DNA from: Chloroflexota bacterium
GTDB taxonomy: Bacteria; Chloroflexota; Limnocylindria; Limnocylindrales; CSP1-4
NCBI GenBank assembly: GCA_046045415.1
Contig: JBJOLT010000032.1
Span: 4,578-68,577, forward strand
Reading direction: 5' to 3'
DNA: 64,000 bases
Made by a program: the position numbers and the translations under genes. Each line of letters begins with the position of its first letter. Position 1 is the first letter of the stretch. Below are positions 19,931 through 51,106 of this stretch, one piece after another. Below the pieces are notes generated by a model that made no database searches, was not told the DNA's origin, and saw nothing but the letters and a program-made list of their open reading frames with translations.

Positions 19931-19949
19931 CGGCCGCGGGCCTCCGCTG

Positions 19950-21491: not shown

Positions 21492-21495
21492 CGCG

Positions 21496-23529
21496 TCACC
21501 GCCCCACGATCGCGAGGTACGACGCCGCGACGACGATCAGGCCGACCGCGATCCCGAGCGCGTAGTTCTGGACCCGGCCGGTCTGGATCCGACGGAGCTC
21601 GCGACCGGTCGACGCGGCGAGCGTCCCGATCCCGTTCACCGTGCCGTCGACGATCGCCCGGTCGAACCACCAGAGCGAGGCCGCGACCCGCCCGCCGATC
21701 CGGATGAAGAGGAGGTCGTTCAGCTCGTCGAACCACCACTTGTTCAGCGAGGCCCGGTAGAGGAACGGGGCGCGGGCGCTCAGGGCGGCGACCCGCTCCG
21801 GCCGCGGCTCGGCGCGGATCGGTCCGAGCGAGACGCCGAAGAGCCGCCATGCGACGCCGATCGCGGTGGCCGCGAGGGCGACCGTCAGGAGGATGAGCGC
21901 GCCGTCGACGCCGAAGAGCTCGATCGGCTTCTCCACCGTCCCGAGCATCACCATCGTCTCCTCGAAGATCGGATGGAGCCAGTGGGCGATCGGCGAGTCG
22001 ACCCCGAGCGGGACCCCGAGCGCGACGCCGATCCCGGCCGAGAAGACCGCGAGGACGAGGAGCGGGACCGTCATCGAGCGGGGCGACTCGTGGATCCGCG
22101 GCTCGACCGCCGGGTCGACCCGGCTCGAGCCCCAGAACGTGAGCCCCATGAGGCGGAACATGTAGAAGGCGGTCATCGCCGCGACGACGAGCCCGATCGC
22201 CCAGACGACGTACGCGCCGTTCTTGAAGGCGACGTGGAGGATCTCGTCCTTCGAGAAGAAGCCGGCGAGCGGCGGGATCCCCGCGATCGCGAGCGAGCCG
22301 ATGAGCATCGTCGCGTACGTGATCGGGATCCGCCTCGCGAGCCCGCCCATCCGGCGCATGTCCTGCTCCTCGTGGACCGCGTGGATCACCGAGCCGGAGC
22401 CGAGGAAGAGGAGCCCCTTGAAGAAGCCGTGGGTCATCAGGTGGAAGATCGCCGCGGTCCACGCTCCGACGCCGAGCGCCGCGAACATGTAGCCGAGCTG
22501 GGAGAGAGTGGAGTAGGCGAGGACCCGCTTGATGTCCGTCTGCGTGAAGGCGATCGAGGCGGCGAGGATCGCGGTGAAGATCCCGATCGCCGCGACGATC
22601 GTCATCGCCTCCGGGCTGTGGCCGAAGAGCGGGTTGAGGCGCGCGACGAGATAGACCCCCGCGTTCACCATCGTCGCCGCGTGGATGAGCGCGGAGACCG
22701 GGGTCGGGCCCTCCATCGCGTCGGGGAGCCAGACGTGGAGCGGGAACTGGGCGCTCTTCCCCATCGCCCCCATGAAGATGAGGAGCGCGAGCCCGGTGGC
22801 GACGAGATGATCGAGCTCGTGGACCCGCTCGAGGACCTCGCGGATGTCGAGCGTCCCGAGCGTGACGAAGACCCCCATGATCCCGAGCGCGAAGCCGACG
22901 TCGCCGACCCGGTTCACGAGGAACGCCTTCTTCGCCGCGAGCGCGGCGGAGCGCTTCCGGTACCAGAAGCCGATGAGGAGGTACGAGCTGAGCCCGACGA
23001 GCTCCCAGGCGACGAAGATGACGAGGAGGCTGTCCGCGAGGACGAGGAGGAGCATCGAGAACATGAAGAGGTTCAGGTAGGCGAAGAACCGCCAGTACCC
23101 GGGGTCGTGGCTCATGTAGCCGAGCGAGTAGACGTGGACGAGCATGCCGATCGTCGTCACGACGATGAGGAGGCACGCGGTGAGGTTGTCGACGAAGAAG
23201 CCGGCGCTCACGTCGAAGTCGCCCGCCGGGATCCACTCGAAGAAGGTGATCCCGTAGCCGTGGTGGCCGAACGGGCCCGCACCGGAGATCGAGGCGACGG
23301 CGACCGCCATCGCGGCGAGCCACGAGCCGACGACCACGAGGACGGGGACGAGGCTCGCGGCCCGGATCCCGTAGCTCGCCTGGAGCCGGCGCCCGAAGAG
23401 GGCCGTGAAGGCGAAGCCGGCGATCGGCAGGAGCGCGATCAGCGGGATGAGGAGGTCGTGGATCCCGCCCGAGGCGGCCTCGGCCGTGGCCTCGGCGGCG
23501 GCGAAGAGGGTCGGGAGTCGCTCGGGCAT
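21496..23529 (-). CDS. nuoL: NADH-quinone oxidoreductase subunit L
   Basis: 677 aa, 'HVWLPDAMEGPTPVSALIHAATMVNAGVY', long C-terminal amphipathic helix region. Confidence 0.9.
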   Translation of the reverse strand: MPERLPTLFAAAEATAEAASGGIHDLLIPLIALLPIAGFAFTALFGRRLQASYGIRAASLVPVLVVVGSWLAAMAVAVASISGAGPFGHHGYGITFFEWIPAGDFDVSAGFFVDNLTACLLIVVTTIGMLVHVYSLGYMSHDPGYWRFFAYLNLFMFSMLLLVLADSLLVIFVAWELVGLSSYLLIGFWYRKRSAALAAKKAFLVNRVGDVGFALGIMGVFVTLGTLDIREVLERVHELDHLVATGLALLIFMGAMGKSAQFPLHVWLPDAMEGPTPVSALIHAATMVNAGVYLVARLNPLFGHSPEAMTIVAAIGIFTAILAASIAFTQTDIKRVLAYSTLSQLGYMFAALGVGAWTAAIFHLMTHGFFKGLLFLGSGSVIHAVHEEQDMRRMGGLARRIPITYATMLIGSLAIAGIPPLAGFFSKDEILHVAFKNGAYVVWAIGLVVAAMTAFYMFRLMGLTFWGSSRVDPAVEPRIHESPRSMTVPLLVLAVFSAGIGVALGVPLGVDSPIAHWLHPIFEETMVMLGTVEKPIELFGVDGALILLTVALAATAIGVAWRLFGVSLGPIRAEPRPERVAALSARAPFLYRASLNKWWFDELNDLLFIRIGGRVAASLWWFDRAIVDGTVNGIGTLAASTGRELRRIQTGRVQNYALGIAVGLIVVAASYLAIVGR

Positions 23530-23535
23530 CGGCCG

Positions 23536-23847
23536 CTACTCCCGCATCGAGGCGTACTCGTCGACGAGCGGCGTCCGCCGGTTCCGGTAGATCGCGATGA
23601 CGATCGCGAGCCCGACGGTCGCCTCGGCGGCCGCGACCGCCATGACGATGATCACGATGACCGCGCCCTGGCTCGCGAGCGCCGGGATGAACGCGCCGAA
23701 GGCGAGGATCGCGAGGTTGACGGCGTTCAGCATCAGCTCGATCGACATGAGCATGCTGATCGCGTTCCGGCGGGCGAGGAACCCGAACGTCCCGATCGCG
23801 AAGAGGAGCGACGCGAGGATGAGGTACGCGTCGAGCGAGTCGGTCAC
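23536..23847 (-). CDS. nuoK: NADH-quinone oxidoreductase subunit K
   Basis: 103 aa, three TM helices, 'LMSIELMLNAVNLAILAF...AAAEATVGLAIVIAIYR'. Confidence 0.9.
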   Translation of the reverse strand: MTDSLDAYLILASLLFAIGTFGFLARRNAISMLMSIELMLNAVNLAILAFGAFIPALASQGAVIVIIVMAVAAAEATVGLAIVIAIYRNRRTPLVDEYASMRE

Positions 23848-24380
23848 GCGCTCCCCTCGTCATCGCGGCGCGCGAGGAAGATCCCGCCGATGACCGCGGC
23901 GAGGAGGAGGACGCTGACGATCTCGAACGGAAGGACGAACGACTCGAAGAGCGTCCTCGCGATCTCGTTCGTCGACGCCGGGACCGCCTCGTCGACCTCG
24001 CCCCAGTCGGTCGCGACGGCGGCGAGCGCCATGACGGCGGCGAGGACGACGGCCGCGATCGCGGCCGGGATCGCCTGGGTCTGGAAGACGAGCCGAGCGG
24101 GCGCCGCCTTCGACTGGGTGAGCATGACGGCGAAGAGGATGAGGACGCTGATCGCGCCGATGTAGACGAGGACCTGCGCGGCGCCGACGAGCGGGGCGCC
24201 GAGGAGGATGTAGAGGCCGGCGAGGCCGCCGAAGCAGACGATCATCGCGAGGCCGCAGCGGATGATGTCGCGCATCGTCACGACGAGGAGGCCGGCGACG
24301 AGCATCAGCCCCGCGAACGCGAGGAAGAGGACGTCCTCCCACGGGATCCCGACGATCGGGACCGTTGCCGATAGCGCCAC
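23844..24380 (-). CDS. nuoJ: NADH-quinone oxidoreductase subunit J (deduced GTG start preceded by GAGGGAG)
   Basis: 178 aa C-terminal part of the over-extended 1193-aa ORF; 'VLFLAFAGLMLVAGLLVVTMRDIIRCGLAMIV...VLVYIGAISVLILFAVML' NuoJ-like; ATGA overlap with nuoK. Confidence 0.8.
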   Translation of the reverse strand: MALSATVPIVGIPWEDVLFLAFAGLMLVAGLLVVTMRDIIRCGLAMIVCFGGLAGLYILLGAPLVGAAQVLVYIGAISVLILFAVMLTQSKAAPARLVFQTQAIPAAIAAVVLAAVMALAAVATDWGEVDEAVPASTNEIARTLFESFVLPFEIVSVLLLAAVIGGIFLARRDDEGSA

Positions 24381-24448
24381 CCAGCTCCCTCTCTCGTGCT
24401 CAGCCGGCTCGTGCCGGTCGTCCCATCCCCGACCGGCGCTCCGGGACC

Positions 24449-27079
24449 CTACCCGTGTCCGTGCCCGTCGTGGCCCCCGTGACCGTGGCCGTTGCCGTTC
24501 GCATGGGCGTGGCCGTTGCCGCCGCCGTTCCGGGCGAAGCTCGCCGGGAGGACCGGGAGGTTCGACCCCGCGAGGGCTCGCTGCTCGCCCGACGCCCGGA
24601 GCGCCCACTGGCGCTCCCGCCGGACGTACGTCATCTCCGTCTCCTGGTCGATCCGCGCGAGGGCGAGGAGGTCGATCATCGGGTTCTCGCGGCTCTCGTG
24701 GGCGAGCTCGAAGTCGGCGCCGTCGCGGAGCGCGTCGTACGGGCAGGCGTCGACGCAGATCCCGCAGAGGATGCAGCGGCTCTCGTCGACCTCGTACTTC
24801 TGGAGGACCCGCGGCTTCGGCATGAGCGCGCCGGTCGGGCACGTCTCCGCGCACCTGCCGCACGAGACGCACGGCGTCTCGTTCAGGCTCATGTCGAGCG
24901 GCGTCGTCACGAGCGTGTCGAAGCCGATCCGCATGAAGTCGTAGCACGCGGCGCCCACCACCTCGGCGCAGACGTTCGCGCAGCGACCGCAGTCGATGCA
25001 GCGGGACGGCTCGCGGAGGATGAACGCGTGGCTGTCGTCGCGGATGTAGTCGTGGTTCTTCCCGGTGAAGCGGTTCTCCGTGACGCTCCGGTAGCCCGCC
25101 CCCTGATGGTGGCCCTTCTCGAGGGTCCGGAGCGTGGTCCCGTACTCGATGCCGAGCCGGCGGAGGTCGCAGAAGCCGATCGCCTCGCAGGTGCACTGGA
25201 GGCAGCGGGTCGACTCGGCGACCGCCTCGGCCGGGGTGTACGGCAGCTCGTACTCGACGTAGCTCCGGTTCCGGTCGTGCGCCTCCATCGCCGTCATCCG
25301 GTAGCGCGGCTCCTTCGCCTCGCTCGTGAACGGGACGATCGAGAGGAACTCCGGCTGCGGCTCGGCGAGCGTCTGGCGCGTCCGGATCGAGGCGAGGTCC
25401 GCGCCGCGGAGGTATGCGTCGACCGCGTACGCGGCGCGGCGCCCCTCGGCGATCGAGGCGACGACCGTCTGGGCGCCGGTCCGGACGTCGCCCGTCCCGA
25501 AGACGCCGGGGCGGTCGGTCGCGAACGTGACGGCGTCGGCCTTCAGCCGGCGGTTCTTCGTCGCCGTGACACCGACGCTCCCCGGGTGCTCGGCCCAGTC
25601 GAGCTCCGGCCCCTGGCCGATCGCGAGGAGGACGCGATCGCACGGGATCGTGAACTCCGTCCCCGGCGCCGGCTCCGGGCGGCGCCGGCCGGACGCGTCG
25701 GGCTCGCCGAGCTTCATCCGGATGAACTCGATCCCGGTTACCTTCCCGGACTTCTCGTCGACGATCACCCGGGTGGGGCCGGCCTGGAAGATCGCCGTCA
25801 CCCCCTCCTCGATCGCCTCGTGGACCTCGCCGGCGGCAGGCATGTCCTTCATGTCGCGCCGGTAGACGAGCGTCACCTCCTTCGCCCCCTGGCGGACGGA
25901 GGTGCGGACGCAGTCCATCGAGGTGAAGCCGCCGCCGACGACGACGACGCGGCTCCCCTTGTGGCCGGGGTACTCGAGGCCGAGCGTCGCGGTCCGGAGG
26001 TACTCGAGGCCGTCGATGACGCCGTCGGCCTCCTCGTTCGGGACGCCGAGCTTGTTCGTGTCGTAGCAGCCGATCGCGACGACGACCGCGTCGTAGCCCT
26101 GGTTCTGCAGGTCGTCGAGCGTGAAGTCGCGCCCCAGCCCCTGGTCGCAGACGATCCGGCCGCCGAGCCGGACGACGCTCTCGTACTCCGCCTCGAGGAC
26201 CTCCACCTTCGGGAGCCGGTACTGCGGGATCCCGTAGCGGAGCATCCCGCCCGGGGCGGGGTCGCGCTCGAAGACGGTGACCTCGTGCCCGCTGAGGAGC
26301 AGGTAGTAGGCGGACGACATCCCGGCCGGGCCGGAGCCGATCACCGCGACGCGGCGGCCCGTCGGCGCCTGGCGCTCGAACGGGACCGGCGGGTCGATCC
26401 CGTCGTTCAGCTGCGCCTTGAGGACCTGGTCCCCCGCGTACCGGTGGCTGTCGCGGATCGCGATCGCCTCGTCGACCTCGTCGCGCCGGCAGTGCTCCTC
26501 GCACGGGGCGGGGCAGACGCGGCCGAGCACCGACGGGAACGGGATCGTCCGCTTGAAGACCCGGGCCGACTCCCGCCAGTTCCCCTCGGCGTTCTGCTTG
26601 AGGAACCCGGGGATGTCGATGTGGCTCGGGCACTTGTTCTGGCAGGGCGGGAGGCAGTACGCGTTGTGGTCGCTGAAGATCAGCTCGAGGTTCGTCCGCC
26701 GGAGTCGGCGGACCTCCTCGGTCTGCGTGCTGACGACCATCCCCTCGGCCGCGGCGAGGGAGCAGCTGATCGGCGGGTTCTCGATCCCCTCGACCTCGAC
26801 GACGCACATCCGGCAGGCCCCGAAGCCGGGGAGCTTCGGCTCGTAGCAGAGGGTCGGGATCTCGATCCCGTTGTCGCGGCAGACCTCGAGGATCGTCTGG
26901 CCCTCGTGGCCCTCCACGACCCGGCCGTCCACCTCGATCCGGATCCGCGGCGTCGACTGCGGCCGCTGGGGCGAGACGGTGGTGAGGAGCCGCTCCGCGC
27001 GGGGGTCGGCGGCGGTCGCGGGCGCGCCGTCGCCGGTCGCCGGGGGCTGCGCGCCTGGTCGGATCAGCAGGTCGGTCAT
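24449..27079 (-). CDS. NuoG-like Fe-S subunit chimera: NuoG/HydA-type N-terminal 2Fe-2S + His/Cys cluster, complete GltD-like (glutamate-synthase small-subunit-type) FAD/NAD(P)H oxidoreductase module, three CxxCxxCxxxC(P) 4Fe-4S motifs, His/Gly/Asn-rich C-terminal tail; no molybdopterin-like domain
   Basis: 'TLCYEPKLPGFGACRMCVVEV...ISCS' (2Fe-2S); 'SDHNAYCLPPCQNKCP'; 'VCPAPCEEHC' + 'VAVIGSGPAGMSSAYYLLLSGHEVTVFERDPAPGGMLRYGIP' + 'VVVVGGGFTSMDCVRTS' (GltD Fer4_20 + two Rossmann sites); 'CIDCGRCANVCAEV', 'CVSCGRCAETCPTGAL', 'CILCGICVDACPYDAL'; tail 'NGGGNGHAHANGNGHGHGGHDGHGHG'. Confidence 0.8.
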   Translation of the reverse strand: MTDLLIRPGAQPPATGDGAPATAADPRAERLLTTVSPQRPQSTPRIRIEVDGRVVEGHEGQTILEVCRDNGIEIPTLCYEPKLPGFGACRMCVVEVEGIENPPISCSLAAAEGMVVSTQTEEVRRLRRTNLELIFSDHNAYCLPPCQNKCPSHIDIPGFLKQNAEGNWRESARVFKRTIPFPSVLGRVCPAPCEEHCRRDEVDEAIAIRDSHRYAGDQVLKAQLNDGIDPPVPFERQAPTGRRVAVIGSGPAGMSSAYYLLLSGHEVTVFERDPAPGGMLRYGIPQYRLPKVEVLEAEYESVVRLGGRIVCDQGLGRDFTLDDLQNQGYDAVVVAIGCYDTNKLGVPNEEADGVIDGLEYLRTATLGLEYPGHKGSRVVVVGGGFTSMDCVRTSVRQGAKEVTLVYRRDMKDMPAAGEVHEAIEEGVTAIFQAGPTRVIVDEKSGKVTGIEFIRMKLGEPDASGRRRPEPAPGTEFTIPCDRVLLAIGQGPELDWAEHPGSVGVTATKNRRLKADAVTFATDRPGVFGTGDVRTGAQTVVASIAEGRRAAYAVDAYLRGADLASIRTRQTLAEPQPEFLSIVPFTSEAKEPRYRMTAMEAHDRNRSYVEYELPYTPAEAVAESTRCLQCTCEAIGFCDLRRLGIEYGTTLRTLEKGHHQGAGYRSVTENRFTGKNHDYIRDDSHAFILREPSRCIDCGRCANVCAEVVGAACYDFMRIGFDTLVTTPLDMSLNETPCVSCGRCAETCPTGALMPKPRVLQKYEVDESRCILCGICVDACPYDALRDGADFELAHESRENPMIDLLALARIDQETEMTYVRRERQWALRASGEQRALAGSNLPVLPASFARNGGGNGHAHANGNGHGHGGHDGHGHG

Positions 27080-27091: not shown

Positions 27092-28414
27092 CTAGCTGCG
27101 GCCGCCCACCGGGACGGCGATCGGGCGGCAGACGCCGGCGGGGCAGGCGCTCCGCACGAGATGGTCGTCGAGCTCCGAGCGGAAGTATCGCATCCCACTC
27201 GTGAACGGGAGCGTCGCGAGCCGCTCGTGGTCGCAGAGGCCGCTCGCGCTCACGTCGTGCGCGAGGTCCTCGATGAGCGCGGGGTCGGTGGGCTTCGGCA
27301 CGCCGGTGACGATCCGCTCGCCGATCTCGTAGAGGCGGCGGAGCCCGATCCGGCAGGGGATCGTCTTCCCGCAGGCCTCGTCGGCGCAGAAGCGGGTGAG
27401 GAGCCGGGCGAGGTCGACGACGCATGCCCGCTCGTCGACCGCGACGAGCGAGCCGGAGCCGACGTGCGCACCCGCCTCCCGGAGCGGCTCGAAGTCGTAC
27501 GGCGTCGCGGCGAGCGTCGCCGGGAGGAGGCCGCCCGACGGGCCGCCGACGAGGAACGCCTTGAGGGCGTGTCCCTTCCCGGTCGCCCCGGCGAGGGCGG
27601 CGATCTCGCCGAGCGGCGTCCCGAGCGGCACCTCAGCGACCCCGGCGCCCGCCGGCGTCCGGAGCGCGACGAGCGCCGTCCCGGGGCTTGCGGACGAGCC
27701 CGTCTTCGCGAACGCGGCGGCCCCGTGGGCGAGGATCCACGAGGCGGCGGCGAGCGTCTGGACGTTCGCGACGACCGTCGGCTTCCCGAAGAGCCCGCGG
27801 ATCGCCGGGTGCGGCGGCCGCTGCTCCGGCTGGCCGCGCTTCCCCTCGAGCGCCTTCAGGAGGACGGTCTCCTCGCCGAGCATGTACGCGCCGGCGACCG
27901 GCGTGACGTGGACCGTCAGCTCGCGGCCGCTCGCGGCGTAGTCGCTCCCGAGGAGGCCCGCGTCGGTCGCGTGCCCCACCGCCGCCGTGAGCCGGCGGAC
28001 GACCTCCGTCTCCTCGGCGCGGACGGCGATCCACGCCTCGGCCGCACCGACGGCGTACGCGGCGATCGCGACGCCCTCGATGACCGCGTACGGGTTCGTC
28101 TCGAGGAGCGCACGGTCGGTCCCGGCCGCCGGGTCCGCCCCGTACCCGTTCGCGACGACGTAGCGGGTCGCGACGGGCTGGGTGGCGCAGACGCGCCACT
28201 TCTCCGCGGCGGGGAAGCCGGCGCCGCCGCGACCGCGGAGCCGCGCCTCGGCGACGACGGCGATCGTCCCCTCCGGCCCGAGCCCCACCGCCGCACGGAG
28301 GCCGGCGAACGCGCCGGCTGCGACGGCGGCGTCGAGGTCGGTGGGGTCGGCGGGCGTGGCGGCCGGGAGGAGGATCCGCGGCCACGCGGCGGGGGTCGGG
28401 AGGATCGTCGTCAC
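27092..28414 (-). CDS. nuoF: NADH-quinone oxidoreductase subunit F-like (51-kDa flavoprotein), divergent (GTG start)
   Basis: 'LRGRGGAGFPAAEKW', 'AGAYMLGEETVLLKALEGKRGQP', 'ACGKTIPCRIG' and 'SGLCDHE' align to the NuoF FMN/NADH and N3 regions. Confidence 0.8.
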   Translation of the reverse strand: MTTILPTPAAWPRILLPAATPADPTDLDAAVAAGAFAGLRAAVGLGPEGTIAVVAEARLRGRGGAGFPAAEKWRVCATQPVATRYVVANGYGADPAAGTDRALLETNPYAVIEGVAIAAYAVGAAEAWIAVRAEETEVVRRLTAAVGHATDAGLLGSDYAASGRELTVHVTPVAGAYMLGEETVLLKALEGKRGQPEQRPPHPAIRGLFGKPTVVANVQTLAAASWILAHGAAAFAKTGSSASPGTALVALRTPAGAGVAEVPLGTPLGEIAALAGATGKGHALKAFLVGGPSGGLLPATLAATPYDFEPLREAGAHVGSGSLVAVDERACVVDLARLLTRFCADEACGKTIPCRIGLRRLYEIGERIVTGVPKPTDPALIEDLAHDVSASGLCDHERLATLPFTSGMRYFRSELDDHLVRSACPAGVCRPIAVPVGGRS

Positions 28415-29071
28415 TCAGCGGCCCCCGAGCGCGGCGTCGAGGGCGCCGACGTAGGCGGCCTCGGTCGGGCGGAGCGCGGCCGCCGCCGGCGCCGCACCGC
28501 TCGCGGCCGTCGGCGGCTCGAGGCGGAGGTGCCGGTAGTAGGTGGCGGTGCCGTAGATCATCGCGTACCAGGCGCCGGTCCGGTGGCTGATCCGCTTGAG
28601 CGCGGCGACCGGGAGGTAGCCGTACGCCGCCTGGACCCCCTCGAGGATCGGGAGGAGCGCCTTCGGGTCCTCGCCGTGCTCCTCGAGGACGCGGTCGACG
28701 TCGGCGAGGTCGATCGGCTCGAAGCGGACGTACGCCGGGTCGGGGACCGGGCGGCCGGAGCGGCGGAGCGCCGATTCCTCTCGCCGCTCGGCGTACGTCT
28801 CGGTCGCGCCCCAGTGGACGTGGTAGCGGCCCTTCGTGTCGACGCCGCCCATGTCGATGCACTCGATCGGGCAGGCCTGCGCGCACTGGAAGCAGGTCTC
28901 GCACTTCAGCGTCCCGAACTCGTCGTAGAGGAGCTGGAGCCGCCCGCGGAAGCGGACCGCCTCGTCGGGCGCCACCTCCGGGTAGCGGACGGTGATCTTC
29001 GGCGCGAAGAAGCGCCGGAGGGTGAGCGCCATCCCCCTGACGATCCCGAGGCCGGGCACGAGGCTCATCAT
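28415..29071 (-). CDS. 218-aa chimera: NuoI-like N-terminal half (one CxxCxxCxxxCP motif only) fused to a NuoE-like N-terminal helical region lacking the 2Fe-2S thioredoxin-like domain
   Basis: 'MALTLRRFFAPKITVRYPEV...VRFRGRLQL...KCETCFQCAQACPIECI' is NuoI-like; no second Cys motif; 'ALLPILEGVQAAYGYLPVAALKRISHRTGAWYAMIYGTATYY' matches the NuoE helical region (LLPILHxxQExxGYLP...VYGVATFY) but no Cys follows; ATGA/adjacent coupling to nuoH and nuoF. Confidence 0.7.
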   Translation of the reverse strand: MMSLVPGLGIVRGMALTLRRFFAPKITVRYPEVAPDEAVRFRGRLQLLYDEFGTLKCETCFQCAQACPIECIDMGGVDTKGRYHVHWGATETYAERREESALRRSGRPVPDPAYVRFEPIDLADVDRVLEEHGEDPKALLPILEGVQAAYGYLPVAALKRISHRTGAWYAMIYGTATYYRHLRLEPPTAASGAAPAAAALRPTEAAYVGALDAALGGR

Positions 29072-30414
29072 CCCCTCCCGTTCACGACGACGATCGCGGC
29101 GGCGGTCACGAAGAGGTTGAGGAGCGCCGCGGGGGTGAGCCACTTCCAGGCGAACCCCATGAGCTGGTCGATCCGGACCCGCGGGAGCGTCCCGCGCATC
29201 CAGACGAAGATGAACACGAAGACGTACGACTTGACGAAGAACCAGAGGAGGCCGATCACCCAGTCGAGGCTCACGACCGCGAGGCCGAGGACGCCGGCGA
29301 CGGCGACGAGGTTGAAGAGGACGAAGCCGATGACGAGCGCCCGGACGAGCGAGACGCGGCTGTCGAGCATCCAGAACGGGAGCGCGAGCCCGACGATCGC
29401 GAGCGGCGGGACGACGAGGAGGAGCGCGAGGAGGCCGATCCCGAGCGAGCCCGGGTCGAGCGCCACAGAGACCGGGAAGGGCCAGTCGAACGGGGCCGTC
29501 CAGCCGCCGAAGAAGAGCGTCACGGCGAGCGCCGAGACGATGAAGACGTTCACGTACTCGGCGAAGAAGAAGAAGCCGAAGCGCATCCCGGAGTACTCGG
29601 TCGCGAAGCCGGCGACGATCTCCGAGTCCGCCTCGGTCAGGTCGAACGGGGTCCGGTTCGCCTCCGCCGTCGCGGCGATGAAGAAGATGAGGAAGCCGAG
29701 CGGCTGGCGCCAGACGTTCCAGTCGAGGATCGAGCCGGACTGCATCTCGACGATCGCGTTCAGGCTCATCGTCCCCGCGAGGAGGATGAGGCCGACGACC
29801 GAGAGCGTGAGCGGGATCTCGTAGCTGACGACCTGGGCGGCCGCCCGGAGCCCGCCGATGAGCGAGTACTTGTTGTAGCTCGCCCAGCCGGCCATGAGGA
29901 GGCCGACGACGCTCAGCCCCCCGATCGCGAAGAAGTAGAGGAGCCCGATGTTGAAGTCCTGGCCGAAGAGGCCGGGCGCGAACGGGATGACCATCATCGT
30001 CATCACGCACGAGAGGAACGTGACGACCGGCGCCCACGTGAAGACGAGGCCGTCGGCGCCCGTCGGGGTGAAGTCCTCCTTCACGAGCACCTTCAGCCCG
30101 TGGTTCACCGACATGAGCGACCCGAACGGCCCGACCCGGTCCGGCCCGATCCGAAGGTTGATCAGCGCGATCACCTTCATCTCCATGTAGATGATGAGGA
30201 AGGCGGTCGGGACGCTCAGGAGGAGGACGGCGGTCGCCGCGACGACGAAGCGGATGATCGGGAGGTTCGCGAGGAGCGCCTCGAGGATCGTCCCGCCGAG
30301 GAGCGCGATCACCGCGACGAGCGAGGCGGTCACCGCGAGCAGGACGGGGACCGCGACGAAGACGACCTTCCCCGGGAGCGTGAGGCGGCTCCAGGCGCGG
30401 GAGGCGACCGTCAC
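29068..30414 (-). CDS. nuoH: NADH-quinone oxidoreductase subunit H (deduced GTG start overlapping nuoD stop)
   Basis: 448 aa, 'GLLYFFAIGGLSVVGLLMAGWASYNKYSLIGGLRAAAQVVSYEIPL', 'EADSEIVAGFATEYSGMRFGFFFFAEY' NuoH hallmarks. Confidence 0.85.
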   Translation of the reverse strand: MTVASRAWSRLTLPGKVVFVAVPVLLAVTASLVAVIALLGGTILEALLANLPIIRFVVAATAVLLLSVPTAFLIIYMEMKVIALINLRIGPDRVGPFGSLMSVNHGLKVLVKEDFTPTGADGLVFTWAPVVTFLSCVMTMMVIPFAPGLFGQDFNIGLLYFFAIGGLSVVGLLMAGWASYNKYSLIGGLRAAAQVVSYEIPLTLSVVGLILLAGTMSLNAIVEMQSGSILDWNVWRQPLGFLIFFIAATAEANRTPFDLTEADSEIVAGFATEYSGMRFGFFFFAEYVNVFIVSALAVTLFFGGWTAPFDWPFPVSVALDPGSLGIGLLALLLVVPPLAIVGLALPFWMLDSRVSLVRALVIGFVLFNLVAVAGVLGLAVVSLDWVIGLLWFFVKSYVFVFIFVWMRGTLPRVRIDQLMGFAWKWLTPAALLNLFVTAAAIVVVNGRG

Positions 30415-31652
30415 TTGTCGATCCCTCCCATGATCGGGTCGAGCGACGCCATCACCGCCATCGTGTCGGCGACGAGGTTCCCCGGCATGAGGAGCGGGAC
30501 GAGCTGGAGGTGGACGAACGACGGGTCGTGGATCTTCAGCCGGAACGGCTGGTCGGTCCCGTCGCTGATCGCGTGCATCCCGTAGACGCCGCGCGGCCCC
30601 TCGACCGCCCCCCACGCGCGACCGGGCCGCGGCCGGAGGAGGCGGGGGAGCTTCGCCATGACCGGCCCGTCCGGCATCTCGTGGAGGCACTGGTCGATGA
30701 TCCGGAGGCTCTGGCGGACCTCGTCCATCCGGAGGAGGTAGCGCGCGAGGCAGTCCCCCTCGCTCCGGGTGGGGATGTCGAACTCGAGCTCCGGGTAGAC
30801 CGAGTACGGGTGCGCGCGCCGGAGGTCGAACGGGACGCCGGTGGAGCGGAGGTTCGGCCCGGTGACGCACATCCGGATCGCCGTCTCGCGGTCGATCGTC
30901 CCGAGGCCGCGCATCCGGCGGACGAAGATCTCGTTCTCGTTCAGGAGCCCGAGGTTCGCCTCGATCTGGCTGCCGGCCCGCGTCATCCACTCGCCGAGGC
31001 GGCTCATGAACTCGTGGTTCAGGTCGCCGTTGACGCCGCCGATCCGGAAGTAGTTGAAGAGCATCCGCTGGCCCGTGAGGGCCGCGAGCATCTCCACGAT
31101 CTCGTCGCGCTCGATGAAGCTGTAGAGGATCGGGGTGAGGCCGCCGAGATCGAGCGCCATCCAGCCCATGAAGAGCGCGTGACTCTGGATCCGGAGGAGC
31201 TCGGTCGAGAGGACCCGGATGTACTCGGCGCGGCGCGGCACCTCGACGTCGAGGAGCTTCTCGAAGGCTATCACCGCCGCCCACTCGCTGAAGAGCGAGC
31301 TGACGTACTCGAGCGGGTCGACCTGGCTGATGCACTGGTGGTAGTCGGCGTTCTCGCAGAGCTTCTCCACCCCGCGGTGGAGGTAGCCGAGGACCGGGTC
31401 GATGTCGATGACCTGCTCGCCGTTCAGCTTGAGGACGACCCTGAGGACGCCGTGCGTCGAGGGGTGCTGCGGCCCCATGTTGATGAACATCTCGCCGTCG
31501 CCGAGCGTGTAGAACTCGGCTTCCCGCTCGGTCCGCGGCGGGTACGGCGGGACCGGCTCGAAGACGCCGATCTCGGCGTCGAGCGTCACGCGCGGGTCGT
31601 CGGCCGACTGGTGCGCCGGCATCTCGTACGGGGTGTGCGGCCCGGCCGTCAT
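30411..31652 (-). CDS. nuoD: NADH-quinone oxidoreductase subunit D (49-kDa)
   Basis: 'FINMGPQHPSTHGVLRVVLKLNGEQV', 'DPVLGYLHRGVEKLCE', C-terminal 'RLKIHDPSFVHLQ' blocks; starts at MTAGPHT (ATGA overlap with nuoC). Confidence 0.9.
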   Translation of the reverse strand: MTAGPHTPYEMPAHQSADDPRVTLDAEIGVFEPVPPYPPRTEREAEFYTLGDGEMFINMGPQHPSTHGVLRVVLKLNGEQVIDIDPVLGYLHRGVEKLCENADYHQCISQVDPLEYVSSLFSEWAAVIAFEKLLDVEVPRRAEYIRVLSTELLRIQSHALFMGWMALDLGGLTPILYSFIERDEIVEMLAALTGQRMLFNYFRIGGVNGDLNHEFMSRLGEWMTRAGSQIEANLGLLNENEIFVRRMRGLGTIDRETAIRMCVTGPNLRSTGVPFDLRRAHPYSVYPELEFDIPTRSEGDCLARYLLRMDEVRQSLRIIDQCLHEMPDGPVMAKLPRLLRPRPGRAWGAVEGPRGVYGMHAISDGTDQPFRLKIHDPSFVHLQLVPLLMPGNLVADTMAVMASLDPIMGGIDK

Positions 31653-32197
31653 GCGCCGATCCTTCGGACGACCGCGTCCGCCGCCGTGTTCGTCGGCACC
31701 TGCGGCTGCTCGATGTGGCGGACCCCGCCGCCGGGCGAGCGCGCCGCGTCGTCCGGGAGGTGGAAGTCCTTCCGGAGCGGGAAGCTCCGGTACTCGGGCG
31801 GCATGTAGATCCGGCGGAGGTCGCGGTTCCCCTCGAACACGATGCCGAACATGTCGTACGTCTCGCGCTCCATCCACTCGGCGCCCTTCCAGAGGAACGT
31901 CACCGAGGGGATGCGGGGCTCGTCGCGGGGGAGCTCCACCGCGATCACCCGGAGCCAGTCCGGCGAGGCGGGGCTCCAGAGGTGGTACGTGACCTGGAGC
32001 GTCGTCCCGGTGTCGACGCCGCAGAGGTCGGCGAGCATCTGGAAGCGGAGCTCGGGATCCTCGGCGAGGATCCGCATCACGTCCGGGACGTCCGCCGGCC
32101 GGACCCTGATCTCCGTCTCGTCATGGCGCTGGCGGACGGGGCCGACGAGCCGGTCGCCGAGGCTCGCCCCGAGTCGGCGCCGCAGGGCGCGGTCCAT
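31649..32197 (-). CDS. nuoC: NADH-quinone oxidoreductase subunit C (30-kDa)
   Basis: 182 aa, 'LADLCGVDTG...VTYHLWS', 'WKGAEWMERETYDMFGIVFEGNRDLRRI'. Confidence 0.85.
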   Translation of the reverse strand: MDRALRRRLGASLGDRLVGPVRQRHDETEIRVRPADVPDVMRILAEDPELRFQMLADLCGVDTGTTLQVTYHLWSPASPDWLRVIAVELPRDEPRIPSVTFLWKGAEWMERETYDMFGIVFEGNRDLRRIYMPPEYRSFPLRKDFHLPDDAARSPGGGVRHIEQPQVPTNTAADAVVRRIGA

Positions 32198-32200
32198 CGG

Positions 32201-32905
32201 TCAGACGCCCTCCGGGACGGTCGGGCCGACGGGCTTCTCCGCCCACTGGCCGCGGCGGTCCTTGACGATCTGCTGGAGCTTCATCATCCCGTAGATCAGC
32301 CCCTCGGGACGCGGCGGGCAGCCGGGGATGTAGACGTCGACCGGCATCACCCGGTCGATCCCCTCGATCGTCGAGTAGCTCCGCTTGTAGCGGCCGCCGG
32401 AGCACGTGCAGTCGCCCATCGCGACGCACCACTTGGGCTCCGGCATCTGCTCCCAGAGGCGGACGAGCGGCCCGGCCATCTTCGTCGTCAGCGTCCCCGC
32501 CACGATGAGGACGTCGGCCTGTCGCGGGCTCGCGCGGAAGGGGAACATCCCCCAGCGGTCCATGTCGTTCTTCGAGGTCGCCGCCGACATCATCTCGATC
32601 GCGCAGCACGCGAGGCCCGAGAGGAGCGGCCAGAGGCTGTTCATCCGGATGAGGTCGAGGACGTAGTCCGCCTTCGTCGGGATCACCTCGAGCGCGCCGC
32701 CCCAGCGGGCGTCGTCCTTCCGCTCGAGACCGGCGAGCTCCACCTGGCGGAGGTGGGTGACGTCCGATCCCGCCCCGCCCTGGTAGGCGAGCGGGTCGGT
32801 CGACGCCCAGAGGGTGTTCGGGACGACGATCGGCTCGACGAGCGCGTCCGACTCGCGGACGACGAGCGCCCCCGGGATCTCGCCGCCCCCGTCGCCCGGC
32901 CTCAC
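32201..32905 (-). CDS. nuoB: NADH-quinone oxidoreductase subunit B (deduced GTG start overlapping nuoA stop)
   Basis: 'SLWPLLSGLACCAIEMM', 'KWCVAMGDCTCSGGRY', 'VDVYIPGCPPRPE' (N2 cluster Cys set). Confidence 0.85.
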   Translation of the reverse strand: MRPGDGGGEIPGALVVRESDALVEPIVVPNTLWASTDPLAYQGGAGSDVTHLRQVELAGLERKDDARWGGALEVIPTKADYVLDLIRMNSLWPLLSGLACCAIEMMSAATSKNDMDRWGMFPFRASPRQADVLIVAGTLTTKMAGPLVRLWEQMPEPKWCVAMGDCTCSGGRYKRSYSTIEGIDRVMPVDVYIPGCPPRPEGLIYGMMKLQQIVKDRRGQWAEKPVGPTVPEGV

Positions 32906-33345
32906 CGCCACGACAGGACCCCCTTCCGCCACGCGTACGCCAGCCCGAGGAGGAGGATCGCGACGAAGACGAGCATCGTCACGAAGCCCGCGAGGAGGAG
33001 CTCCGGGAAGACCGTCGCCCAGAGGTAGATGAAGATCACCTCGATGTCGAAGGCGACGAAGAGCAGGGCGTAGATGTAGAACGAGACGCCGTACCTGCCG
33101 TGGGTGTCGCCGAACGTGTCGATCCCCGACTCGTACGGGAGCCCCTTGTGCGGGTCGCCCTTCACGCGGTGCGAGAGCAGCCACGCGGCGGCGATCGTGA
33201 GGAAGACGAACGAGACGCCGGCGAAGGCGAACCCGACGACGTACCAGATGCCGGTCAAGCGTTCCTCGCTCTCGAAGGGGCGGGGGCGATGGCGGGCGCG
33301 ACGGGCGGCCGGGACGAGCGCGGTCGGCGTCGCACGCTCGCGCAT
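32902..33345 (-). CDS. nuoA: NADH-quinone oxidoreductase subunit A (start uncertain: ATG at 33345 or later)
   Basis: Three-helix membrane protein 'GIWYVVGFAFAGVSFVFLTIAAAWLLS...DTFGDTHGRYGVSFYIYALLFVAFDIEVIFIYLWA'. Confidence 0.75.
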   Translation of the reverse strand: MRERATPTALVPAARRARHRPRPFESEERLTGIWYVVGFAFAGVSFVFLTIAAAWLLSHRVKGDPHKGLPYESGIDTFGDTHGRYGVSFYIYALLFVAFDIEVIFIYLWATVFPELLLAGFVTMLVFVAILLLGLAYAWRKGVLSWR

Positions 33346-41661: not shown

Positions 41662-44444
<2,783 letters not shown>

Positions 44445-44448
<4 letters not shown>

Positions 44449-45452: not shown

Positions 45453-45513
45453 CGGGGTCGCTCGGGGGCGCCCCGCCGGCCGGAGCCGGTGCCGCGCCCC
45501 CTCGCCCTCCTCG

Positions 45514-48102: not shown

Positions 48103-48139
48103 GCGCGGCTCCCCTCGGTTCGTCCTGATCTCACTTCGT

Positions 48140-48487: not shown

Positions 48488-48518
48488 CGACTCGTCGTCC
48501 GGCGCCGCGGTCCGGCCG

Positions 48519-49049: not shown

Positions 49050-49112
49050 CGCGCAACACCTCCGTGTCGTCTCGCCCGCGCCGGACCCCCGTGGCCGACG
49101 CTGACATGGGAG

Positions 49113-50045: not shown

Positions 50046-50050
50046 CGCGC

Positions 50051-51075: not shown

Positions 51076-51106
51076 CGGGGGCGCGCGGCCACCGGCGCGT
51101 CGGCCG

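What the first reader, a model, noticed from the sequence alone, without database searches (positions are those of the whole stretch)
28415..29071. 218-aa NuoI(N-half)-NuoE(N-half) chimera lacking the second NuoI cluster motif and the NuoE 2Fe-2S domain
The first ~75 aa are unmistakably NuoI-like (TLRRFF..ITVRYPE, RFRGRL, CETCFQCAQACP). The second CxxCxxCxxxCP motif that NuoI needs to hold clusters N6a and N6b is absent. Instead the C-terminal half matches the helical N-terminal region of NuoE (LLPILEGVQAAYGYLP...IYGTATYY). It stops before the Cys-containing thioredoxin-like domain. The gene is ATGA-coupled to nuoH and abuts nuoF, so it is unlikely to be a random remnant. With one Cys motif it cannot ligate the usual two tetranuclear clusters. 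Electron transfer from N-module to Q-module must therefore differ from canonical complex I, or this is a non-respiratory NDH-like complex.
Basis: seen in the sequence. Interest (0 to 1): 0.8.

Follow-up and report, generated by a model that had tools for sequence, protein, structure and literature searches.

The report
Split NuoI in NADPH-type complex I
The odd 218-residue protein is a real, conserved subunit of an unusual respiratory complex I in Chloroflexota, in which the iron-sulfur subunit NuoI is cut in two and each half is fused to a protein of an NADPH/NADH-oxidising module borrowed from Nfn/Stn-type transhydrogenases.

Summary
The ORF at 28415-29071 (- strand) joins the N-terminal half of NuoI, with one CxxCxxCxxxCP motif, to the helical N-domain of a NuoE/NfnC-like protein. 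It has no thioredoxin-like 2Fe-2S domain. It is not a remnant: over 550 species-level genomes (the 80 listed are nearly all Chloroflexota, mostly Ca. Limnocylindria) encode it, all 80 inspected loci share the gene order, every Cys is invariant and dN/dS is below 1.

It forms the C-terminus (aa 757-848) of the 876-aa protein two genes downstream. Joined in silico, the halves match the NuoI model collinearly (positions 1-116 of 121) with all eight Cys.

The three genes between nuoH and nuoJ resemble NfnABC/StnABC (Bfu-type) enzymes more than canonical NuoEFG. The module is trimmed. It lacks the C1 cluster, the extra B-subunit cluster domains and the FdhF-like domain, and it has one fewer N3/B1 Cys.

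Best reading: NuoI re-forms from two chains, tethering a non-bifurcating NADPH (and possibly NADH) dehydrogenase module to an otherwise complete complex I. Distant Chloroflexota relatives keep the 2Fe-2S domain, so there is a graded series. I found no description in the searchable literature. I class it as a new variant of a known kind.

The parts
28814..29071 (-). IE protein aa 1-86: N-terminal half of NuoI. It has the N-terminal helix, the TLRRFF..ITVRYPE segment, RFRGR, and the first CxxCxxCxxxCP motif at 28871-28903.
   Evidence: NCBIfam NF004536 positions 12-90 of 180, E 6e-14, and TIGR01971 positions 1-66 of 121. The Cys motif was located. C57, C60, C63, C67 and P68 are invariant in 80 loci and in distant relatives.
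28712..28813 (-). IE aa 87-120: conserved linker (GATETYAERREESALRRSGRPVPD...) with no family match. It is the most constrained segment of the protein.
   Evidence: Conservation line. Median dN/dS 0.15 against 80 loci. No Pfam or NCBIfam hit covers it.
28502..28711 (-). IE aa 121-190: helical N-terminal domain of a NuoE/HydC/NfnC/StnA-type subunit.
   Evidence: PF01257 positions 2-63 of 145, E 1e-9. Best PDB sequence hits are NfnC 9bov_C and StnA 8oh5_A. The AF2 model has pLDDT 88-96 and superposes on NfnC 9bp5_C at rmsd 1.0 A over 66 columns.
28415..28501 (-). IE aa 191-218 plus stop: Ala/Pro-rich tail. It aligns with the first strand and helix of the thioredoxin-like domain in relatives that still have that domain. 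All cluster Cys are lost.
   Evidence: Alignments: window ...AAPAAAALRPTEAAYVGALDAALGG against P0229 ...VCHGTACHVAGAQQITEALEEELG. Full-length relatives are shown.
27092..28414 (-). NuoF/NfnB-like flavoprotein core (440 aa). It lacks the N- and C-terminal cluster domains of Bfu B subunits. The N3/B1 motif is CGKTIPC (second Cys lost) and the FMN-pocket motif is NGYGADPA.
   Evidence: Pfam PF01512 and PF10589. PDB best hits are NfnB 9n5u_B (327 bits), 9bov_B and HydB, above complex I NuoF (266 bits). Residue-level alignment. Family conservation.
24449..27079 (-). 876-aa NfnA/StnC-like protein. It carries a NuoG/HoxU-type 2Fe-2S domain (26720-26947), an inserted GltD-type FAD/NADPH domain (25400-26656) and a HydA-type two-cluster ferredoxin domain (24812-25021). 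These are followed by the NuoI C-half and a His/Gly-rich tail.
   Evidence: Pfam and NCBIfam. PDB: 9bov_A NfnA E 3e-161 over query 46-779, 8oh5_C StnC, 9n5u_A. About 82% identical across 55 loci.
24536..24811 (-). aa 757-848 of the 876-aa protein: C-terminal half of NuoI. It has the second CxxCxxCxxxCP motif at 24743-24775, then YDALRDGADFELAHESRE... It occupies the place where the FdhF-like domain of NfnA/StnC begins.
   Evidence: TIGR01971 positions 71-116 of 121. The best-scoring NCBIfam families for this fragment alone are NuoI models. PDB best hits for this stretch are TYKY/NuoI, about 54 bits. The junction with NfnA/StnC is shown. The same C-terminal fusion occurs in L082, L083 and L084.
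29068..33306 (-). Upstream operon genes. Approximate coordinates, starts not determined: nuoH 29068-30330, nuoD 30411-31640, nuoC 31649-32197, nuoB 32201-32800, nuoA 32902-33306.
   Evidence: Pfam PF00146, PF00346, PF00329, PF01058 and PF00507. The NuoD alignment to complex I 49-kDa subunits keeps GPQHPSTHGVLR and the Tyr of D(P/R)L(E/D)Y.
18464..24440 (-). Downstream operon genes. Approximate coordinates: nuoJ 23844-24440, nuoK 23536-23850, nuoL 21496-23535, nuoM 19950-21536, nuoN 18464-20017.
   Evidence: Pfam PF00499, PF00420, PF00361 and PF00662.

Best explanation
The 218-aa protein is one of two polypeptides that together replace NuoI in a variant complex I.

Proposed origin (inferred): an stnABC/nfnCBA-like three-gene unit (NuoE-like, NuoF-like, NuoG+GltD-like) sits inside what would otherwise be nuoI. 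The 5' half of nuoI is fused to the helical N-domain of the E-like subunit; this is the protein in question. The 3' half of nuoI is fused to the C-terminus of the G/GltD-like 876-aa protein, where NfnA/StnC carry their FdhF-like domain.

Proposed assembly (inferred from ferredoxin chemistry): in a 2x[4Fe-4S] ferredoxin fold each cluster takes three Cys from one motif and the fourth from the other. The two halves must therefore pair, and clusters N6a and N6b would be ligated jointly by both chains. This both rebuilds the electron wire to N2 in NuoB and staples the input module to the Q-module. It would substitute for the large NuoG C-terminal domain, which is absent here.

Proposed electron path (inferred): electrons enter at the well-conserved GltD-type FAD/NADPH site, and possibly at the altered NuoF-like FMN site. 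They pass through the NuoG/HydA-type clusters into N6a/N6b, then N2, then quinone, driving the NuoL/M/N pumps.

The module is unlikely to bifurcate. It lacks the C1 2Fe-2S cluster and the extra B-subunit cluster domains, and it has lost one B1 ligand.

Shown: the domain homologies, the complementarity of the halves, conservation, gene order and the graded series in relatives. Inferred: physical pairing of the halves, cluster content, NADPH as donor and the insertion history.
For: 1. The halves are complementary. IE aa 13-79 matches TIGR01971 positions 1-66, and the 876-aa protein aa 757-802 matches positions 71-116. Joined, they give one collinear match over positions 1-116 of 121 at 99.2 bits, against 47.9 and 46.6 bits alone. 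Aligned with five canonical NuoI sequences, all 8 Cys and 2 Pro are invariant at 31-40% identity.

2. Motif parity. The window has exactly four CxxCxxCxxxC motifs. Two of them align with the HydA-type pair of NfnA/StnC. That leaves one orphan motif on each protein, and each orphan best matches NuoI.

3. No other nuoI, nuoE or nuoG was found among the confident ORFs of the 64-kb window.

4. Conservation. More than 2900 homologues were found, and the best 120 listed are 217-241 aa. At least 553 genome matches were found. The order D-H-IE-F-G876-K is seen wherever the contig extends far enough, in all 80 loci. Cys ligands are invariant. dN/dS is 0.15-0.47 per segment.

5. The same split occurs in distant relatives at 25-35% identity. 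L082, L083 and L084 all have NuoI-N::NuoE plus a NuoG/HoxU-like protein ending in CI(F/Y)C..C.E.CP...(F/Y)EL. In L083 the GltD domain is fused to NuoF instead.

6. Module origin. The best solved relatives of all three proteins are C. saccharolyticus NfnABC (9bov/9bp5), S. ovata StnABC (8oh5) and T. sibiricus NfnABC (9n5u).

7. The FAD and NADPH motifs, including GGGFTSMD...YRR, align with NfnA and are invariant in the family.

8. The complex is otherwise complete and NuoD keeps the quinone-site residues.
Against: No direct evidence shows that the two halves bind each other or hold clusters. The AF2 model of the joined halves was low-confidence in the NuoI-like core (pLDDT about 48-66; about 40 without an alignment).

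The joined sequence still scores below the curated NuoI cutoff (99.2 against 113.05).

NfnA and StnC have an FdhF-type CxxCxxxC cluster motif at the same position. The third motif of the 876-aa protein could therefore be a remodelled resident cluster rather than an imported NuoI half.

The F-like subunit has a changed flavin pocket and only three canonical N3/B1 Cys, so its cofactor content and NADH use are uncertain.

I could not check whether these genomes carry a second, canonical complex I or a stand-alone nuoI elsewhere.
Confidence: 0.7

Rival explanations
1. This complex has a one-motif NuoI that cannot hold both N6a and N6b, so electron transfer from the N-module to the Q-module bypasses or lacks one cluster, or the complex is a non-respiratory NDH-like enzyme.
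For: The ORF itself has a single CxxCxxCxxxCP motif and no further Cys. AF2 does not confidently fold the joined halves.
Against: A single motif supplies only three ligands to one cluster and one to another, so it cannot form a stable site alone. A complementary NuoI-specific half sits two genes downstream and is conserved with it in every relative examined. All membrane and Q-module subunits are present, and the quinone-site residues are kept.
Confidence: 0.1
2. The ORF is a pseudogene, a frameshifted nuoI, or an assembly chimera.
For: Some database homologues are visibly frameshifted translations, for example P0140, P0165 and P0220.
Against: No alternative frame carries a second motif. The identical architecture at 70-80% identity occurs in 80 of 80 independent genome loci and in thousands of metagenome proteins. 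The gene is under purifying selection. The frameshifted entries come from other, error-prone assemblies, not from this window.
Confidence: 0.01
3. The module is a true bifurcating/confurcating Bfu unit, like the predicted Nuo-Bfu. It would oxidise NADH (or NADPH) together with reduced ferredoxin to drive quinone reduction. Alternatively it works mainly as a membrane-coupled NADH/NADPH transhydrogenase rather than as a respiratory NADPH dehydrogenase.
For: All three proteins are closest to Bfu-type Nfn/Stn subunits. Nuo-Bfu complexes with BfuABC genes inside nuo clusters have been proposed (PMC9304861). The distant relative L081 keeps a BfuB-type N-terminal 2Fe-2S domain and a full NuoE.
Against: The minimal bifurcation site is B1-FMN-C1 (PMC11829005). 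Here C1 is absent and B1 lacks a Cys. The ferredoxin-side domains of the B subunit are also missing: F aligns only to residues 117-538 of NfnB.
Confidence: 0.1
4. The NuoI N-half on the 218-aa protein is only a membrane/NuoH-docking anchor with no cluster. The third motif of the 876-aa protein is a remodelled FdhF-type cluster that passes electrons directly to N2.
For: NfnA and StnC carry a Cys motif at the equivalent junction. The N-terminal helix of IE is the best-predicted part of the NuoI-like region.
Against: The four Cys and the Pro of the IE motif are invariant from Limnocylindria to relatives at about 30% identity. That is hard to explain without metal binding. The C-terminal fragment matches NuoI models through the post-motif FELA segment, not FdhF.
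Confidence: 0.1

Closest known systems
NuoI / Nqo9 / TYKY (NDUFS8), the 2x[4Fe-4S] subunit of complex I
   Same: The N-terminal helix, the ...T..YPE and RFRG segments, and two CxxCxxCxxxCP motifs followed by a FEL-type C-terminal segment. Position in the operon directly after nuoH and before nuoJ.
   Different: Here the fold is encoded on two polypeptides separated by a nuoF-like gene. Each half is fused to an input-module protein. Neither half, nor their in-silico sum, reaches the curated NuoI score.
NuoE / Nqo2 / 24-kDa and its Bfu counterparts HydC, NfnC and StnA
   Same: The helical N-terminal domain: PF01257 positions 2-63, and rmsd 1.0 A to NfnC 9bp5_C. The gene lies directly before the NuoF-like gene.
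   Different: There is no thioredoxin-like domain and no 2Fe-2S cluster (N1a/C1). It is fused behind half of NuoI. Relatives show the intermediate steps: a full domain in L081, L083 and L084, and a domain with a degenerate Cys set in P0150.
NfnABC (Nfn-Bfu) of Caldicellulosiruptor saccharolyticus and Thermococcus sibiricus, and StnABC of Sporomusa ovata (PDB 9bov/9bp5, 9n5u, 8oh5)
   Same: A three-gene unit of E-like, F-like and NuoG-N-terminus+GltD(FAD/NADPH)+HydA-type clusters. These are the best sequence matches for all three window proteins.
   Different: Those enzymes are soluble, tetrameric and electron-bifurcating, and they reduce ferredoxin and NAD+. The window module lacks C1, the extra B-subunit cluster domains, one B1 Cys and the FdhF-like domain that mediates Stn tetramerisation (PMC10482914). 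It is encoded inside a nuo operon.
Predicted Nuo-Bfu complexes (Schut et al. 2022, PMC9304861) of Geobacter, Deferribacteres, Planctomycetes and Nitrospirae
   Same: A complex I gene cluster whose NADH module is Bfu-type and sits in the middle of the cluster.
   Different: Nuo-Bfu is defined by an intact bifurcating BfuBC core. That paper makes no mention of NuoI (the term does not occur in its text), and a GltD insertion in a nuo-linked module is not described in the passages read. The window's B subunit lacks the ferredoxin-type domain used to define BfuB in that survey.
Mbx-like clusters in which a GltD-related flavoprotein takes the place of NuoI (Degli Esposti 2015, PMC4758237)
   Same: A GltD-type NAD(P)H flavoprotein associated with complex I-related modules at the NuoI position.
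   Different: There the flavoprotein is said to substitute for NuoI in a sulfur/NADP-linked Mbx-type complex. Here NuoI is retained but split, in a quinone-reducing complex with 13 protein-coding genes.
Known complex I gene fusions (NuoCD, NuoBCD)
   Same: Rearrangement of core subunit boundaries without loss of the core fold.
   Different: Those are fusions of whole subunits. This is a fission of one subunit with fusion of its halves to non-neighbouring partners.

Membership tests
NuoI (NCBIfam TIGR01971 / NF004536) | N-terminal segment plus the first CxxCxxCxxxCP motif | tested here: met
   aa 9-86 matches NF004536 positions 12-90 of 180, E 6e-14. The motif lies at 28871-28903.
NuoI (NCBIfam TIGR01971 / NF004536) | Second CxxCxxCxxxCP motif in the same polypeptide | tested here: not met
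   The ORF has only one motif, and no other frame carries one. The second motif lies on the 876-aa protein.
NuoI (NCBIfam TIGR01971 / NF004536) | Whole-protein score at or above the curated cutoff (113.05 bits for TIGR01971) | tested here: not met
   45.2 bits for the ORF. 99.2 bits for the two halves joined in silico.
NuoI (NCBIfam TIGR01971 / NF004536) | Binds clusters N6a and N6b between NuoG and NuoB | not testable with these tools
   This needs a structure or spectroscopy. The AF2 model of the core was low-confidence.
NuoE / 2Fe-2S_thioredx (PF01257, TIGR01958) | Helical N-terminal domain | tested here: met
   PF01257 positions 2-63 of 145, 38.8 bits against a gathering score of 24.8. Fold match to NfnC, HydC, FdsG and NuoE N-domains.
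NuoE / 2Fe-2S_thioredx (PF01257, TIGR01958) | Thioredoxin-like domain with four Cys ligating a 2Fe-2S cluster | tested here: not met
   The protein ends 30 residues after the helical domain and has no Cys after residue 67. TIGR01958 scores 21 bits against a cutoff of 142.4.
Bfu family (bifurcating BfuBC core; Schut 2022, Li 2025) | BfuC with the C1 2Fe-2S cluster, and BfuB with B1 plus extra N- and C-terminal cluster domains | tested here: not met
   C1 is absent. F (440 aa) aligns only to residues 117-538 of NfnB. B1 reads CGKTIPC where NfnB has CGKCTFC.
Nfn-Bfu / Stn A-type subunit (NfnA / StnC) | NuoG-type 2Fe-2S domain with an inserted GltD FAD/NADPH domain and HydA-type clusters | tested here: met
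   9bov_A E 3e-161 over query 46-779, and 8oh5_C E 2e-144. Residue-level alignment.
Nfn-Bfu / Stn A-type subunit (NfnA / StnC) | C-terminal FdhF-like (molybdopterin-fold) domain | tested here: not met
   The alignment to NfnA and StnC stops at about residue 700 of about 1175. The FdhF-like domain of StnC starts at aa 683. The remaining residues match NuoI.
Respiratory complex I (NDH-1) | Membrane subunits NuoA, H, J, K, L, M and N, and Q-module subunits NuoB, C and D, in one cluster | tested here: met
   Pfam hits for all ten. NuoD aligns with 49-kDa subunits and keeps the His of GPQHPSTHG and the Tyr of the D.L.Y segment.
Respiratory complex I (NDH-1) | Canonical N-module: NuoE with N1a, NuoF with four-Cys N3, NuoG with its large C-terminal domain, encoded between nuoD and nuoH | tested here: not met
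   The gene order is A-B-C-D-H-[I'E']-F'-[G'I'']-J-K-L-M-N. N1a is absent. N3 has three canonical Cys. The NuoG C-terminal domain is absent.
Respiratory complex I (NDH-1) | NAD(P)H:quinone oxidoreductase activity coupled to proton pumping | not testable with these tools
   This needs biochemistry.

The most novel reading that the evidence does not exclude
This is a second, independent invention of a pyridine-nucleotide-driven complex I. An 11-subunit (NuoABCDHIJKLMN) ancestor captured an stn/nfn-type three-gene operon by insertion into nuoI. The insertion split the NuoI ferredoxin fold across two chains that re-assemble around clusters N6a and N6b. The result is a proton-pumping NADPH:quinone oxidoreductase that serves as the main respiratory entry point in Ca. 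Limnocylindria, a class known here only from metagenome-assembled genomes. Relatives would preserve the stepwise decay of the former bifurcating machinery.
Probability: 0.35. Interest if true: 0.8.

Novelty: new variant of a known kind. Interest (0 to 1): 0.65.

Why it matters
Complex I is usually described as fixed modules with a single origin for the NADH-oxidising N-module. If this reading holds, it matters in four ways.

1. The input module would attach by a different solution: covalent tethering through a split NuoI instead of the NuoG C-terminal scaffold.
2. The module would be drawn from a different source, Nfn/Stn-type transhydrogenases.
3. It would give a natural example of a 2x[4Fe-4S] ferredoxin fold divided between two polypeptides.
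4. It points to a candidate NADPH-oxidising, proton-pumping complex I. No complex I in the literature I retrieved is shown to use NADPH. That would change how redox balance and energy yield are modelled for Limnocylindria.

The graded series in relatives runs from a full NuoE with a BfuB-like F, through a degenerate thioredoxin domain, to no domain. It offers a testable path from a bifurcating enzyme to a respiratory input module.

There is also a practical consequence. Annotation pipelines call this protein 'ferredoxin' or 'NAD(P)H-dependent oxidoreductase subunit E'. Genomes of this kind may therefore be scored as lacking NuoI, NuoG or a complete complex I.

Tried and rejected
- **AF2, single sequence.** The joined NuoI halves gave pLDDT 40, which is uninformative.
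- **AF2 with an accepted alignment (A4).** The NuoE-like domain was confident, but the NuoI-like core was only pLDDT 48-66. Its Foldseek hits to NuoI have rmsd above 13 A. Structure prediction therefore neither supports nor refutes pairing of the halves.
- **MAFFT alignment of IE plus an appended C-half (A2).** It misaligned canonical NuoI C-halves onto the linker and was discarded.
- **Protein search with the 876-aa C-terminal region.** The 120 listed hits were short (136-262 aa) and probably gene fragments, some on long contigs where frameshifts would be the cause. This gave no architecture census.
- **Literature searches.** Searches on Limnocylindria/Ellin6529 complex I, NuoI-NuoE fusion, Nuo-Bfu and GltD plus complex I found background papers but no description of this arrangement. 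One search was mis-specified and useless.
- **Read-through fusion of IE and F.** IE's TGA is directly followed in frame by F's GTG. I rejected this because the genes are not in frame in L001 (coordinates).
- **Pseudogene or frameshift.** Rejected.
Full report
**1. The observation**

The window has 73% G+C. On the minus strand, an ORF at 28415-29071 encodes 218 aa. Its ATG overlaps the nuoH stop as ATGA (29068-29071). Its TGA is followed directly by the GTG of a nuoF-like ORF at 27092-28414.

- Residues 9-86 match NuoI models: NF004536 positions 12-90 of 180, E 6e-14, and TIGR01971 positions 1-66 of 121.
- Residues 121-188 match the N-terminal part of NuoE-type models: PF01257 positions 2-63 of 145, E 1e-9, above Pfam's gathering score. 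The formate dehydrogenase gamma, HoxE and NuoE models of NCBIfam also match.

A six-frame regular-expression scan of all 64 kb finds only four CxxCxxCxxxC motifs. One is in this ORF (28871-28903) and three are in the 876-aa ORF at 24449-27079. No frameshift can therefore restore a two-motif NuoI here. Pfam scans of the other confident ORFs show no further nuoI, nuoE or nuoG in the window.

**2. It is a conserved gene, not a remnant**

A protein search returned more than 2900 significant hits. The best 120 are all 217-241 aa, 73-100% identical and nearly all cover more than 90% of the query.

A scan of one genome per species found at least 553 genomes encoding a relative. The 80 best are MAGs labelled Ca. 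Limnocylindrales/Limnocylindria, Chloroflexota or Chloroflexia, plus a few labels that are probably mis-binned.

In all 80 loci the order nuoD-nuoH-[this gene]-nuoF-like-876-aa gene-nuoK is kept wherever the contig extends far enough. The Cys motif CETCFQCAQACP is invariant, as are the three motifs of the 876-aa protein.

Median dN/dS against the 80 loci, by segment:

| Segment | dN/dS |
|---|---|
| NuoI-like half | 0.25 |
| Linker | 0.15 |
| NuoE-like half | 0.47 |
| Tail | 0.46 |

With GC3 near 97%, dS is compressed, so these values are if anything overestimates.

**3. The missing NuoI half**

The NCBIfam scan of the 876-aa protein gave an unexpected match. Residues 757-802 match TIGR01971 (NuoI) positions 71-116 of 121. 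That is exactly the part missing from the 218-aa protein.

Scanned alone, the C-terminal 97 residues hit NuoI models first (best E 2e-12). Generic ferredoxin and hydrogenase models score clearly lower.

Against solved structures, the stretch from the third motif through '...YDALRDGADFELAHESRE' best matches TYKY/NuoI chains at about 54 bits.

Joining IE aa 1-80 to aa 757-850 of the 876-aa protein gives one uninterrupted alignment to TIGR01971 positions 1-116 at 99.2 bits. This is roughly the sum of the halves (47.9 and 46.6 bits), though still below the curated 113.05.

In a MAFFT alignment with five canonical NuoI sequences, the joined halves are 31-40% identical to them. All eight Cys and both Pro are invariant.

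The other two motifs of the 876-aa protein align with the HydA/NuoG-type cluster pair of NfnA and StnC. So each of the two proteins carries exactly one 'orphan' motif.

In this fold each cluster takes three Cys from one motif and the fourth from the other (established ferredoxin chemistry). The orphans can therefore only form clusters together.

**4. What the genes between the halves are**

All three proteins have their best solved relatives in Bfu-type transhydrogenases.

- The 876-aa protein matches C. saccharolyticus NfnA (9bov_A, E 3e-161, query 46-779 to chain 4-699), S. ovata StnC (8oh5_C) and T. sibiricus NfnA (9n5u_A).
- The F-like protein matches NfnB, HydB and StnB at 313-327 bits, above the best complex I NuoF at 266 bits.
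- The E-like half matches NfnC and StnA.

The 876-aa protein has three parts:
- a NuoG/HoxU-type 2Fe-2S domain;
- a GltD-type domain inserted after the start of the His-cluster motif, with FAD and NADPH signatures aligned to NfnA (VAVIGSGPAG...; GGGFTSMD...VYRR);
- the HydA-type two-cluster domain.

Its similarity to NfnA and StnC stops at about residue 700 of those proteins. The FdhF-like domain of StnC begins at aa 683 (PMC10482914). The NuoI half takes that domain's place.

In Stn, the clusters of the FdhF-like C-terminal domain (C1 and C2) form a dead-end 'evolutionary remnant' branch. I infer that here the corresponding exit is used to feed NuoI and N2.

**5. The module is trimmed**

According to Li et al. 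2025, the minimal bifurcation site of Nfn-Bfu is B1-FMN-C1. Here several elements are missing or altered.
- C1 is absent, because the thioredoxin-like domain is gone.
- The F-like protein aligns only to the core (residues 117-538) of NfnB. It lacks the N-terminal and C-terminal cluster and Zn domains.
- The B1/N3 motif reads CGKTIPC where NfnB has CGKCTFC. The Thr position varies in the family, and an upstream Cys is at least 80% conserved.
- The flavin-pocket motifs NADEGDPG and NNVET read NGYGADPA and ANVQT. They are conserved as such within the family.

I therefore regard bifurcation as unlikely and the cofactor status of the F-like subunit as open. The GltD part is the most conserved protein of the region, at about 82% identity. 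This points to NADPH as a real substrate. That is an inference.

**6. The rest of the complex is ordinary**

Pfam confirms NuoA, B, C, D and H upstream, and NuoJ, K, L, M and N downstream. NuoD aligns with 49-kDa subunits of complex I and NDH-1. It keeps GPQHPSTHGVLR and the Tyr of the D-x-L-x-Y segment, which form the quinone site in known structures (plus my own knowledge of T. thermophilus H38 and Y87).

The gene order is A-B-C-D-H-[I'E']-F'-[G'I'']-J-K-L-M-N. This is the order of an 11-subunit complex with three genes set inside nuoI. The inserted order E-F-G equals stnA-B-C.

**7. Relatives outside Limnocylindria**

An exhaustive profile-free search of 1.8 billion cluster representatives found 52 clusters at E below 1e-30, plus more distant full-length fusions. 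Several 'homologues' are frameshifted translations and were ignored. The informative ones are these.

| Relative | IE-type protein | Other features |
|---|---|---|
| P0229 / L081 | NuoI-N fused to a complete NuoE with all four Cys | F-like protein carries a BfuB-type N-terminal 2Fe-2S domain and an intact CxxCxxC |
| P0248 / L083 | Full NuoE part | 1048-aa Trx-2Fe2S + NuoF + GltD fusion; 265-aa HoxU-like protein ending in CIYCGLCVESCPHDALETGSDYELA; then nuoJKLMN |
| P0283 / L084 | Full NuoE part | 799-aa G/GltD protein ending in a NuoI C-half; F-like motif ACGRCIPGR, a different Cys lost |
| P0223 / L082 (Chloroflexi MAG) | No thioredoxin domain | Intact N3 motif; 793-aa protein ending CIFCGDCVEVCP...FEL; no nuoJ-N directly downstream |
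| P0150 (Limnocylindria) | Thioredoxin-like domain present, second Cys pair lost | - |

The split of NuoI is thus the constant feature. Loss of the 2Fe-2S domain and of other Bfu parts is graded.

**8. Structure prediction**

Without an alignment, the joined halves gave pLDDT 40.

I then used an accepted alignment (A4) of an artificial chain made of NuoI-N, NuoI-C and the rest of IE. In that model:
- the NuoE-like domain and tail were confident (pLDDT 72-96);
- the N-terminal helix was fair (83);
- the ferredoxin-like core was poor (48-66).

Foldseek placed the confident domain on the N-domain of NfnC (9bp5_C) at rmsd 1.0 A over 66 columns and 42% identity. Hits followed to HydC, FdsG, StnA and NuoE. 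In the NAD-bound entries 9bov_C and 9n5v_C the deposited chain is only 64-67 residues, so little more than this helical domain is modelled. [quoted passage not shown] This fits the idea that the retained helical domain is the static anchor on the F-like subunit and that the lost domain was the mobile one.

The NuoI core result is inconclusive.

**9. Literature**

- Schut et al. 2022 predict membrane-bound Nuo-Bfu complexes in Geobacter and others, but with an intact bifurcating core. The term NuoI does not occur in that paper.
- Degli Esposti 2015 notes Mbx-like clusters in which a GltD-related flavoprotein replaces NuoI.
- Spero 2015 remarks that many Chloroflexi seem to lack only NuoG.
- Moparthi and Hagerhall 2011 argue for an 11-subunit ancestor that is also present in Chloroflexi.

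None of my searches found a description of a split NuoI or of the Limnocylindria arrangement. The library is incomplete, so prior description elsewhere cannot be excluded.

**10. Verdict**

- Confidence that NuoI is split and re-formed from two fusion proteins is 0.7.
- Confidence that the complex oxidises NADPH is about 0.5.
- Confidence that it arose by independent capture of an stn/nfn-type operon by an 11-subunit complex is about 0.35.
- Novelty: a new variant of a known kind.
- Interest: 0.65.

Noticed in passing
window 24452-24529 (- strand): The 876-aa protein ends in a His/Gly-rich tail, NGGGNGHAHANGNGHGHGGHDGHGHG. Homologous fragments from other genomes (P0287, P0288, P0293) carry similar His/Gly-rich tails. 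It may be a metal-binding tail. Its function is unknown.
   Followed up: partly
window 27092-28414 (- strand): The NuoF-like protein has family-conserved changes at positions that are canonical in NuoF and NfnB. NADEGDPG reads NGYGADPA, NNVET reads ANVQT, and the N3/B1 motif CGKCTFC reads CGKTIPC. Relative L084 has lost a different Cys (ACGRCIPGR), while L082 and L081 are intact. Flavin and cluster content are uncertain.
   Followed up: partly
window 28712-28813 (- strand): The linker between the NuoI-like and NuoE-like parts (GATETYAERREESALRRSGRPVPD) is the most strongly constrained segment of the protein (dN/dS 0.15). It matches no family and its role is unexplained. The preceding KGRYHVHW resembles the strand that precedes the second motif in NuoI, and that strand is also present (QKYEVDESRC) on the 876-aa protein.
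   Followed up: partly
window 28412-28417: The TGA stop of the 218-aa gene is followed immediately, and in the same frame, by the GTG start of the nuoF-like gene. Stop-codon read-through would give a fusion. The in-frame relation is not kept in locus L001, so it is probably coincidence.
   Followed up: partly
L083:2076-6023: A distant relative has a different arrangement of the same parts. A 1048-aa protein combines a thioredoxin-like 2Fe-2S domain, NuoF and GltD. A 265-aa HoxU-like protein ends in the NuoI C-half. nuoJKLMN follow.
   Followed up: partly
L082:6481-17865: In this Chloroflexi MAG the cluster nuoA-B-C-D-H-IE-F-G is not followed by nuoJ-N. A flavin reductase, a GYD-domain protein, a small ferredoxin and pyruvate:ferredoxin oxidoreductase genes come next. 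Whether the membrane arm is encoded elsewhere is unknown.
   Followed up: no
database proteins P0140, P0165, P0166, P0220, P0233 and P0287-P0406: Many apparent homologues are frameshifted translations, or short pieces that look like fragments of the 218-aa and 876-aa genes, some on long contigs. They inflate cluster counts and could mislead architecture surveys.
   Followed up: partly
window 29068-30330 (- strand): The NuoH region translated here (420 aa; the true start was not determined) is spread over more residues than the 298-position Pfam model: residues 34-410 match positions 5-298. It therefore carries insertions relative to typical NuoH.
   Followed up: no
window 41662-51171 (- strand): A run of stress and proteostasis genes: ClpB-type AAA+ chaperone, Lon protease, Hsp20 and a universal stress protein. 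It is unrelated to the finding.
   Followed up: no
window 3978-9353 (+ strand): A very long stop-to-stop frame of about 1790 codons has coding-like composition. Its only hits are protein-O-mannosyltransferase (PMT, PMT_4TMC) domains in the C-terminal third. It may be several genes or one large glycosyltransferase.
   Followed up: no
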